Source: Pirellulales bacterium (GTDB taxonomy: Bacteria; Planctomycetota; Planctomycetia; Pirellulales; PALSA-1355). Taken from it: DNA of 64,000 nucleotides. The DNA lies in contig CAVTBU010000009.1 of the NCBI GenBank assembly GCA_963733035.1, positions 256,001 to 320,000 of the forward strand. Reading direction: 5' to 3'. Positions 42,401-45,400 of this stretch are shown one piece after another. Position numbers: made by a program. Each line of letters opens with the position of its first letter. Within the stretch, counting starts at the first letter, position 1.

Positions 42401-45400
42401 GCGCTGCGTGCCACTGGTGCACGAAGAGCGGATCTATCTCGTGGGTCCTAGTGGCGAGTTGGCCTGTGTGCGGCTTGGAACAGGTGAAAAAGTTTGGGAA
42501 AGAAACGTGCATCGGGATTTCAACGCGCCGGACGGCTATTTTGGCGCCGGCAGCAGTCCGATTGTCGAAGGCGACAAGCTATTGCTGAACGTGGGCGGCC
42601 GCGGCGGGGCGGGGATTGTCGCGTTTTCACTGACCGACGGGAAAACGATTTGGAAATCGACCGATGAAGCCGCCAGCTATTCGTCGCCAGTGGCAGTAGC
42701 GCTCGATGGTCAACGGCTTGTGATCTTTGTTACCCGGCTGAACGTGGTCGCCGTCGATCCCCAGAATGGCGCTGTGAGGTTTCAGTTTCCCTTTGGTCAA
42801 CGAGGGCCTACCGTCAATGCCGCCAATCCAATTGCGATCGGTAATCACTTGTTTGTTTCCGCTAGCTACGGCGTTGGCGCGGTGTGGGCCAAGATTGGTC
42901 CCAACAGCGCGAGCACTGTCTGGGAAAGCAACGACGTTATGTCGAGCCAATACACTACGTGCATCGAGAAAGACGGTGTGCTGTACGGCATCGACGGTCG
43001 TCAGGACGTGGGCGTGGCGCGGCTACGCGCTTTCGATCCCCAGACCGGCAATGTCGATTGGACGGAGGAAGGCTTTGGCACCGGAAACCTGATTTTGTCC
43101 GGCGACAAGCTGCTCATTATGAAAACCGATGGGACGCTTGTCTTGGTTCAGCCGTCGCCAAAAACCTACCAACCGCTGGCCGATGCTCAATTGTTTGACA
43201 CCACCGTGCAAGCCCTGCCGGCGCTGTCGCGTGGTCGACTATTTGTTCGCGATACCAAGACGCTCAAATGCGTCGCCGTTGGAAAACCGGCGACCAGCCG
43301 CCCCTAGAGACAACGAGGGCAGACTGCCGGCGGCAGCTACCCTCGATGTTTGATTCCGATTGGCGGTCCGGCGTGAGTCTTAGCAGCCCACGGGCTCGCG
43401 TTTGGCACGGCGATAGAAGCCGACGCCTTCCAGGGCCTTGTAGACTTCCTCAAGTGTTTTTTCGCCGAAGTTTGAGATGCTAAGCAGGTCATCTCGCGTG
43501 CAATGCAGCAAATCGTTGACCGTGAAGATACCCCGTTCTTCCAGGCAATTTGTCGTGCGAACGGTCAGGCCAATTTCGGCGGTGCTCATTTCCAAACGAG
43601 CGGTAAGATCTTCTGCCTGAGTGTCGAGCGTGGGCAACTTAACGCGGGTCATCGGGCTCCCTCCCTCAATGAGAAAATAGTTGTTCAACGAGATGGCAGG
43701 CGCGCGTGGTTCTCCTGCCTTGGTGGGCCACTCCTGTTGGCCTCTTCGTTGGCCGGTAATATAGCAACTTCGCTGGAAAATGGTACCGGTTAGAGAAGAT
43801 TTTCAGGCGGCAGGCGGCCCGGCATGCTAGCATTCGCTCGGTTCATACTGAAGGGTACGCCGCGTTCGGCGACGTTTGTCGGTACGTGACACGCGGCTTC
43901 TGATTGGCGGCTTTGATGTGGCATGAACGTTGTGCAAACAAGACTTGAACGATTGTCGTTTTGCCTCGGGCGCCGCAGCCCCGTTCGATTCGCACACGCA
44001 CGCTGGCGGGCTGCCGCCGAAACCGCACATGCGTATACTATAAACGTGGCAGATCGATTGAAGTTTAGCACCTCGCATTTCGGCAACTGACAGGGATCTC
44101 GGGCTTTGTGGAGTAAGCAACTCGATTCGTTGACGCCGGCCCAGCGCGAGGCCGTTGAACATTTGGAGGGGCCACTTCTGATCCTAGCCGGACCGGGCAG
44201 CGGCAAGACGCGCGTGATTACCCACCGCGTCGCGAACCTGTTGCGCCATGGCGTTCCGGCCCGACAGATCCTGGCGCTCACATTCACGAATAAGGCCGCG
44301 GACGAGATGCGGTCTCGAGTGGAACAGTTGGCACCGGGCCAGCCGGTTTGGATGAGCACGTTCCACCGTTTTTGCGCGCGGCTGCTGCGGCAATACGCAT
44401 CGCAGGTGGGGCTTACCGAGAATTTCACGATCTACGACACGTCCGACAGTCGGCAGGCCCTCAAGCGAACGCTCGAAGAGAGCCGGGTCGACGCCTCGCT
44501 CTACTCGCCAGAGCGGATTGCCGCGGCCATCAGTTGGGCCAAGAACAGCCTGATCACCGCCCAGCAATACCAGGCCCGGCCGGGACACCCACTGGGAAGT
44601 ATCGTGGCGAAGGTTTATCCGGCCTATCAGGCTCGGCTGTTGGCCTCCAGTGCCGTGGACTTCGACGATCTGTTGTTACACGTCGCCACGATGCTCCGCG
44701 ACAACCCGGAAACCCGAGTCACGCTCGACGCGCGCTATCGATACATCCTGGTCGACGAATATCAGGACACGAATCTGGCGCAATACACGATCGTTCGGGC
44801 CCTCTCGATCGACGAACCGAACCTTGCCGTGACGGGCGACCCCGACCAGTCGATTTACGGCTGGCGAGGTGCCAACCTGAGCAACATTCTCGACTTCGAA
44901 AAGGACTATCCCGAAGTTCGCCTCGTAAAACTCGAACAAAACTACCGAAGTACCAAGCGCATCTTGCGCGTGGCCGACCATTTGATCGGCTACAACCAGC
45001 GACGAAAAAAGAAGGGGCTGTTTACCGAGAACGAAGAAGGGCAGAGCGTGCGCCTGGTGAACTACCCCACGCAGCGCGATGAGGCGGAAGGCATCGCCTC
45101 GTATATCGCCAGCGAGGTCCGAGCCGGTCGCCGGCGGCCACGCGACTTTGCCGTCTTCTACCGCGTGAATGCCCTGTCGCGCAGCCTGGAATTTGCACTC
45201 CGCGATCAGGGCGTGCCGTATCAGATGGTCAACGGACTGGAATTCTACCAGCGCCGCGAGATCAAGGACGTACTGGCCTACCTGCACCTGATCAACAACC
45301 CGCGCGACGACGTCTCGTTGCTGCGCGTCATCAACAATCCGCCGCGCTCCATTGGTAAGAGCACGCTGACACGCCTTGGGGAACACGCATCCCGCTATGG

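What a model noticed while it worked through the whole genome (the two positions that open the first line are those of the whole stretch)
43380..43652. Free-standing 90-aa alpha-CTD protein divergent from pcrA keeps the DNA-binding lysine lost in RpoA
g05550 is a stand-alone RNA polymerase alpha C-terminal domain, near-universal and highly conserved in Pirellulales, usually divergent from pcrA. It retains the full UP-element-binding set including the K298 equivalent, whereas the RpoA of these bacteria has Thr there, suggesting the DNA-binding role moved to a separate protein.
Evidence so far: Short stand-alone ORF in 39 of 41 genomes at 62-85% identity. Lys in 20 of 20 stand-alone copies, Thr in 19 of 19 RpoA (one fetched row was the TPR protein and was dropped); divergent pcrA in 12 of 20; pair in 581 of 1333 order genomes. 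Thousands of ~90-aa relatives.
(Added by a program. Inside this text positions count along the whole contig: contig position 256,001 is position 1 of the stretch shown here. "Call 12" and the like, gene names such as g00115 and contig names such as C1 are that model's own, and its searches are not shown. The text may have been shortened before it was handed on; [...] marks where a part breaks off. The agent that wrote the report below was given it as the finding of a first reader that could run no searches.)

Follow-up and report, generated by a model that had tools for sequence, protein, structure and literature searches.

The report
Detached RNA polymerase alpha-domain protein
One order of planctomycete bacteria keeps, almost without exception, a tiny separate copy of the RNA polymerase part that normally grips promoter DNA and activators; it looks like an untested new kind of transcription helper, but it did not simply take over a job the polymerase had lost.

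Summary
The gene is real: a 90-aa ORF (43380-43652, minus strand) made of one alpha C-terminal domain (alphaCTD) plus a short N-terminal arm. It was found in 194 of 201 same-order genomes (single copy in 190) and in 0 of 114 genomes of other Planctomycetia orders. It has Lys at E. coli position 298, and RpoA has Thr.

RpoA lacks Lys298 across the whole phylum, including lineages without the small protein (0 of 203 RpoA have Lys). A tree places the small protein inside Planctomycetia RpoA CTDs, so the Lys was probably regained, not kept.

A weaker division of labour has support. RpoA's CTD evolves faster relative to its own NTD in the four families with the protein (ratio 1.11-3.72) than in three without (0.68-0.71); this is one phylogenetic contrast.

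The pcrA link is no tighter than the link to the downstream DUF3592 gene. The promoter carries a conserved TGCTAGCA palindrome phased to a -10 box.

Best guess: a trans-acting, DNA-binding transcription cofactor. No function is shown.

The parts
43380..43652 (-). Stand-alone alphaCTD gene, 90 aa: N-terminal R-[IV]-[PR]-L motif, a predicted helix (7-20), the alphaCTD (about 16-79), and a short basic variable tail
43657..43667 (-). Strong Shine-Dalgarno (GAGGGAGGGAG); GGAGG within 20 bases of the start in 109 of 117 homologous loci
43758..43766 (-). Extended -10-like box TGCTATATT; TATACT, GCTATA and TATATT words are enriched upstream of homologues. Predicted, not mapped
   Evidence: the sigma70 consensus scan found no site
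43825..43832 (.). Conserved palindrome TGCTAGCA; its GCTAGC core starts 68 bases upstream of the -10 hexamer. GCTAGC in 74 of 115 upstream regions (9.7 expected from shuffles; 210 of 2112 comparable genes in this genome); spacing peaks at 55-59 and 66-70
44106..46448 (+). PcrA/UvrD helicase, divergent neighbour, with its own TATACT box near 44034; the start codon is uncertain
41970..43307 (+). PQQ-type beta-propeller protein, convergent; present in a minority of loci (19 of 80)
39492..41879 (-). DUF3592 protein, a 133-aa ORF and a 181-aa ORF; co-oriented downstream in 56, 50 and 46 of 80 loci; conserved synteny block, no link of function shown

Best explanation
At the base of Pirellulales the 3' end of rpoA was duplicated and became a separate gene with its own promoter and ribosome-binding site (origin: supported by tree and shared residues, not proven). 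The product is a detached alphaCTD acting in trans as a transcription cofactor. It binds A/T-rich minor-groove DNA through the helix-hairpin-helix face (R32, N35, C36, N61, G63 and regained K65), and it docks on a protein of the transcription machinery through the S23-A25-E26/T34/G41 face, the new N-terminal RIPL arm or the new aromatic residues (F43, Y71, F79). It shares part of the alphaCTD's work with RpoA, whose own CTD has relaxed. Shown: gene, distribution, fold, residue states, rate shift. Inferred: DNA binding, partner, effect on transcription.
For: Single copy in 190 of 201 order genomes and 0 of 114 outside. Domain identity between genomes 0.81, like RpoA CTD 0.82. alphaCTD fold by AlphaFold2 (mean pLDDT 72) and Foldseek. 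Nested in Planctomycetia RpoA CTDs at 100/96 with column 298 dropped and nine Lys298 outgroups included, on a stem of 1.26 changes per site. T298K fixed at a residue that contacts UP-element DNA in E. coli (PMC5101437 passage). RpoA CTD/NTD distance ratio 1.11, 1.13, 1.18, 3.72 with the protein, 0.68, 0.68, 0.71 without. In family f78 the RpoA DNA face decays (F295A in 11 of 30, G296A in 3 of 30) while 22 of 22 small proteins keep it unchanged. Five positions at 99-100% in RpoA of families without the protein drift in RpoA of families with it and stay at 100% in the small protein.
Against: No binding or expression data. The domain is as acidic as RpoA's CTD (-3.6 vs -3.2) and trades R293 for S while gaining K298, so the hairpin's net charge is unchanged. 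RpoA keeps R265, N268 and G296 in families f2 and f73 (60 of 60). The rate shift is a single clade contrast, and f78 was picked after seeing its weak hits. Keeping 5 of 6 drifted positions is not beyond the protein's general retention of about 60% (p about 0.23, worked by hand). A free monomeric alphaCTD is expected to bind DNA weakly (recalled). The AU test does not exclude a foreign origin.
Confidence: 0.45

Rival explanations
1. Protein-only adaptor or decoy: the small protein binds a factor that used to bind RpoA's CTD (an activator, NusA, a Spx-like regulator, the TPR-alphaCTD protein or a phage modifier) and titrates or presents it, without binding DNA itself.
For: Net acidic domain and Glu297; new fixed hydrophobic residues F43, Y71, F79 and an N-terminal R3 invariant in 31 of 31 aligned; the positions it kept while RpoA drifted (256, 258, 259, 267, 274) lie outside the core DNA contacts (their role as a protein-contact face is recalled from E. 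coli and B. subtilis work).
Against: Does not explain fixing Lys at exactly position 298 in 117 of 117 copies, nor the frozen hairpin in family f78.
Confidence: 0.25
2. Small nucleoid-associated or anti-activator protein: it coats A/T tracts on its own and competes with RpoA's CTD, with no contact to polymerase.
For: Intact DNA face, basic tail (R81 at 99%), strong Shine-Dalgarno suggesting high translation. The title of Blatter 1994, seen in the reference list of PMC4495994, says the isolated alphaCTD can dimerize and bind DNA.
Against: Mean net charge of the whole protein is -1.9, unlike typical basic nucleoid proteins (recalled); competition would not predict relaxed RpoA CTDs.
Confidence: 0.13
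3. Partner of PcrA in transcription-coupled repair or RNAP recycling.
For: Divergent pcrA in 54 of 74 loci; mfd within 6 kb in 10 of 80.
Against: DUF3592 is linked as often (56 of 80). The two genes have separate -10 boxes about 270 bases apart. The upstream palindrome stays with the small gene when pcrA is absent (23 of 33 vs 51 of 80).
Confidence: 0.09
4. One reading: RpoA lost DNA binding with K298T and the small protein replaces it.
For: Complementary Lys/Thr states within the order.
Against: Non-Lys (nearly always Thr) in 84 of 84 RpoA from three families lacking the protein and in 38 of 38 other-class RpoA; their DNA face is 99-100% conserved.
Confidence: 0.05

Closest known systems
alphaCTD of bacterial RpoA (Pfam PF03118; structures 1LB2, 1Z3E, 9ZUM)
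   Same: Fold (Foldseek rmsd 1.4-1.8 A over 60-70 columns) and DNA-contact residues R265, N268, C269, N294, G296, K298.
   Different: No NTD or linker, so no tether to RNAP; lacks the L314-G315-M316 tail; has a new N-terminal RIPL arm and fixed changes L260I, A266T, R293S, L312F, L314R, plus G261, F276, Y304.
Planctomycete TPR protein with two alphaCTDs (probably Plim_0602 in Planctopirus limnophila)
   Same: An extra alphaCTD outside RpoA in the same genomes.
   Different: About 440 aa, phylum-wide (30 of 31 genomes), first domain has Thr298 in 29 of 30; forms separate clades from the small protein.
Francisella alpha1/alpha2 paralogues (PMC3294249, seen as search listing and abstract start only)
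   Same: Duplication of alpha-subunit sequence within one genome.
   Different: Both are described as RNAP subunits forming a heterodimer; here only the CTD was copied.
Bacillus phage vB_BmeM-Goe8 'RNA polymerase subunit alpha' (QDP42789.1)
   Same: An alphaCTD outside RpoA, with a basic residue at 298.
   Different: 210 aa with an unrelated N-terminal part, phage-encoded, 40% identity.

Membership tests
alphaCTD domain family (PF03118) | Score above the Pfam cut-off | tested here: met
   67.7 bits vs 23.8
alphaCTD domain family (PF03118) | Four-helix double helix-hairpin-helix fold | tested here: met
   AlphaFold2 model (pLDDT 72, alignment included RpoA CTDs) and Foldseek hits to alphaCTDs
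RpoA (RNAP alpha subunit) | N-terminal assembly and dimerisation domain; full-length score | tested here: not met
   90 aa; 57 bits vs TIGR02027 cut-off 227.8; true rpoA lies on contig C5
UP-element-binding alphaCTD | R265, N268, N294, G296, K298 present | tested here: met
   117 of 117 copies; residue roles from PMC5101437 and PMC11434276 passages
UP-element-binding alphaCTD | Binds A/T-rich DNA | not testable with these tools
   needs EMSA or ChIP
UP-element-binding alphaCTD | Tethered to RNAP through the alpha linker | tested here: not met
   Short open frames, own SD and ATG start; non-covalent docking is untested
Planctomycete TPR-alphaCTD protein | TPR repeats plus two CTDs | tested here: not met

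The most novel reading that the evidence does not exclude
Pirellulales have split the alphaCTD's job between the polymerase and a diffusible 90-aa module, in effect a detachable alphaCTD that reads A/T-rich upstream DNA and docks on RNAP or its activators, while RpoA's own CTD decays (almost fully in family f78). That would make UP-element and class I activation switchable by the level of one small protein, a mode of bacterial transcription control not found in the searches made here.
Probability: 0.3. Interest if true: 0.85.

Novelty: new variant of a known kind. Interest (0 to 1): 0.66.

Why it matters
The alphaCTD is a near-universal hub for promoter DNA and activators and is normally tied to RNA polymerase. 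A free copy kept in single copy across a whole bacterial order, with a regained DNA-contact lysine and a matching relaxation of RpoA's CTD, points to an unstudied layer of transcription control in planctomycetes. Cultured species carry it, so it is directly testable. The work also shows a phylum-wide loss of the otherwise conserved Lys298 in Planctomycetota RpoA, which raises the question of whether these bacteria use UP elements at all.

Tried and rejected
- Homodimer prediction: no verdict, score 0.00; no evidence either way.
- First AlphaFold2 run, on the 31-row alignment: pLDDT 54, not used.
- RNA runs: no RNA holder was listed.
- Viral contigs: only two 38%-identity matches. Phage and plasmid records: all below 60% identity, mostly annotated rpoA.
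- Neighbour clustering by all-against-all BLAST was swamped by shadow frames and replaced by targeted tblastn.
- Fused forms: 68 longer hits. Of those read, several look like frameshift or chimera artefacts; three are TIR fusions.
- Order genomes without a hit: 7. One is cut by a contig end, one has its pcrA cut at a contig end, and congeners of two carry the gene. Four of the seven, scanned with PF03118, showed no short hit, so true loss (e.g. G292, G447) is not excluded.
- The palindrome as a sigma54 site was considered and dropped: no flanking conservation. As a second extended -10 it is possible but weak: T follows in only 39%. Genome-wide pairing of GCTAGC with -10 boxes shows no clear peak.
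- Literature: searches found nothing on this protein. The term 'alpha CTD' appears to miss the joined Greek spelling, and most subscription papers are absent, so absence from print is not established. Supplements of PMC2754498 list only rpoA RB12626 under these names.
- Rows dropped: one fetched 'RpoA' was the TPR protein (L033), one was partial (L099), and one RpoA with an apparent frameshift (L463) was left out.

Full report
OBSERVATION. Window 43380-43652 on the minus strand encodes a 90-aa protein. Its only family above cut-off is the RNA polymerase alpha C-terminal domain, PF03118; it falls far below full-length RpoA models. The genome has four PF03118 hits: RpoA, two domains in a roughly 440-aa TPR protein, and this gene. 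Homologues start with ATG (37 of 37, 78 of 80) behind a strong Shine-Dalgarno (GGAGG in 109 of 117). An AlphaFold2 model built with RpoA CTDs in the alignment (mean pLDDT 72) matches solved alphaCTDs. It is a real stand-alone gene, not a fragment.

DISTRIBUTION. Among 150 same-class genomes, 36 of 36 from the same order gave a 59-78% hit, almost always in a short frame, and 0 of 114 from other orders did; their best hits were much weaker (E of 1.6e-16 or worse) and the listed ones lay in long frames. In a larger order sample it was in 194 of 201 genomes, single copy in 190; some misses are assembly gaps. Record titles and database names place the order as Pirellulales and include cultured genera, all labelled only as alpha subunit or alphaCTD-containing.

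THE LYSINE. Aligned to the fetched E. coli RpoA, the protein has R265, N268, C269, N294, G296 and K298, then Thr at 299. A review passage names R265, N294 and K298 as UP-element minor-groove contacts (PMC5101437, passages); another names R265 and N268 (PMC11434276, passages). Lys298 is in 117 of 117 copies (80 of these were pattern-selected) and in 9 of 9 RpoA from other phyla. Planctomycetota RpoA lacks it everywhere sampled: T in 37 of 38 other-class RpoA, 21 of 21 same-class RpoA outside the order and 13 of 13 inside. In a family-level sample, 193 of 203 had T and none had K (one frameshifted row dropped; the samples overlap in part). The first TPR-linked domain has T in 29 of 30. So the loss predates the small protein and does not vary with it. 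In families without the small protein the RpoA DNA face is 99-100% identical, so RpoA has not been shown to have lost that function.

ORIGIN. Two trees put the small proteins in one clade inside Planctomycetia RpoA CTDs (SH-aLRT 96; 100/96 with column 298 removed and nine Lys-bearing outgroups), on a long stem followed by short branches. Shared residues (S256, A258, E259, T267, E271, E297, T299) agree. The exact sister group differed between the trees, only about 70 columns were available, no PVC sister phyla were included, and an AU test did not reject grouping with the Gram-positive and Fusobacterium outgroups (p=0.17). The likeliest reading is duplication followed by regain of Lys.

DIVISION OF LABOUR. 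Within-family divergence of RpoA's CTD relative to its NTD is 0.68, 0.68 and 0.71 in three families without the protein, and 1.11, 1.13, 1.18 and 3.72 in four with it; bootstrap ranges of the two groups do not overlap. In family f78, chosen after its weak hits were seen, RpoA shows V264 changed in 26 of 30, F295A in 11 and G296A in 3, while 22 of 22 small proteins keep these positions and are 94% identical. Five positions invariant in RpoA without the protein (256, 258, 259, 267, 274) drift in RpoA with it and are fixed in the small protein. By count this is not beyond chance (5 of 6 against about 60%, p about 0.23, by hand), and the order is one phylogenetic contrast. That these positions form a protein-contact face (sigma region 4 in E. 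coli, Spx in B. subtilis) is recalled, not tested.

NEW FEATURES. The protein has an N-terminal R-[IV]-[PR]-L motif (RIPL in 67 of 117), a predicted helix at 7-20, fixed G261, F276, C284, Y304, E308, F312 and R314, and lacks the L-G-M tail. It also loses R293 and is net acidic (-3.6 against -3.2 for RpoA's CTD), which tempers the DNA-binding inference.

CONTEXT. pcrA is divergent in 24 of 37 and 54 of 74 loci, but a DUF3592 gene and two unknown ORFs follow downstream as often (56, 50, 46 of 80), and DUF3592 is itself in 35 of 36 order genomes. This reads as a conserved synteny block. Upstream regions share GCTAGC (74 of 115; 9.7 expected; about 10% of comparable genes in this genome) and an extended -10-like box, with spacings clustered at 55-59 and 66-70, also without pcrA (23 of 33). 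The phasing suggests an upstream regulator; related genomes are not independent and the binder is unknown. TGCTAGCA is intergenic in 32 of 74 genomic sites against 24% for all CTAG words, upstream of mixed genes.

MECHANISM. Most likely (0.45) a trans-acting transcription cofactor: it binds A/T-rich DNA through the helix-hairpin-helix face and docks on RNAP or a regulator, sharing work with RpoA's CTD. Rivals are a protein-only adaptor or decoy (0.25), a nucleoid or anti-activator protein (0.13), a PcrA partner (0.09) and the strict hand-over (0.05). Gene, range, fold, residue states and rate shift are shown; binding, partner and effect are inferred.

COMPARISON WITH WHAT IS KNOWN. It is a member of the alphaCTD domain family but not an RpoA, and not the TPR protein. 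In P. limnophila Tn-seq source data, Plim_0602 carries both alpha-subunit and TPR labels and a value of 0.00074 against 0.0040 for rpoA, under the lowest stated insertion-index cut-off of 0.013 (PMC10632474, passages and supplement rows); that this is the TPR-alphaCTD protein and essential is my inference. Searches found no paper on the small protein, within the limits of the library and of term matching. PMC2754498 (passages and supplement search) mentions only rpoA; PMC4495994 was seen as passages; PMC3294249 as listing and abstract start. bioRxiv supplements were closed and could bear on expression data.

VERDICT. Observation confirmed, interpretation partly supported. A new variant of a known kind: interest 0.66.

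Noticed in passing
G000:C7:555731-557050 (L196); relatives L197-L225: Phylum-wide TPR protein with two alphaCTDs and no Lys298 (30 of 31 genomes). The likely P. limnophila copy, Plim_0602, has a very low insertion index, so it may be essential; function unknown.
   Followed up: partly
RpoA across Planctomycetota (L006-L045, L076-L107, L274-L490): Lys298, present in 9 of 9 outside RpoA, is absent from every Planctomycetota RpoA sampled; Planctomycetia also have Glu or Asp at 297 and a near-invariant R293.
   Followed up: yes
L274-L303 (family f78): RpoA CTD is decaying (67% identity against 90% for the NTD), with G296A in some members.
   Followed up: yes
window 43825-43832 and 73 other genomic sites: TGCTAGCA is enriched between genes (32 of 74); a GCTAGC core with similar spacing to a -10 box (69) lies upstream of an McsA-like gene (name recalled from its sequence) at G000:C10 near 192409. 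Possibly an undescribed planctomycete operator.
   Followed up: partly
proteins P0148, P0152, P0154, P0161: The small protein's domain is fused at the C-terminus of TIR-domain proteins (three) and an HTH protein (one); Lys298 is kept in all four, with changes at neighbouring positions.
   Followed up: no
L251 (G339) and proteins P0157-P0159, P0289, P0318: Divergent second copies or a subfamily (MAVTRIPIP start) with changes at 296-298; four of 201 order genomes had two hits.
   Followed up: no
G018, G044, G097, G112, G126 (family f20): Six or seven alphaCTD hits per genome instead of three, in a family outside Planctomycetia.
   Followed up: no
L226:1054-1686 (Bacillus phage Goe8): Phage-encoded 210-aa protein ending in an alphaCTD.
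   Followed up: no
window 36212-37903 and 48087-51476: PolX-PHP and Mfd-like genes flank the block (polX within 6 kb in 16 of 80 loci, mfd in 10 of 80); the polX ORF may start in another frame near 38006.
   Followed up: no
window 39492-40037 and 40111-40512: Conserved 181-aa ORF with a P-loop-like GPHGSGKS motif and a 133-aa ORF, neither with a Pfam hit, syntenic in 46 and 50 of 80 loci.
   Followed up: no
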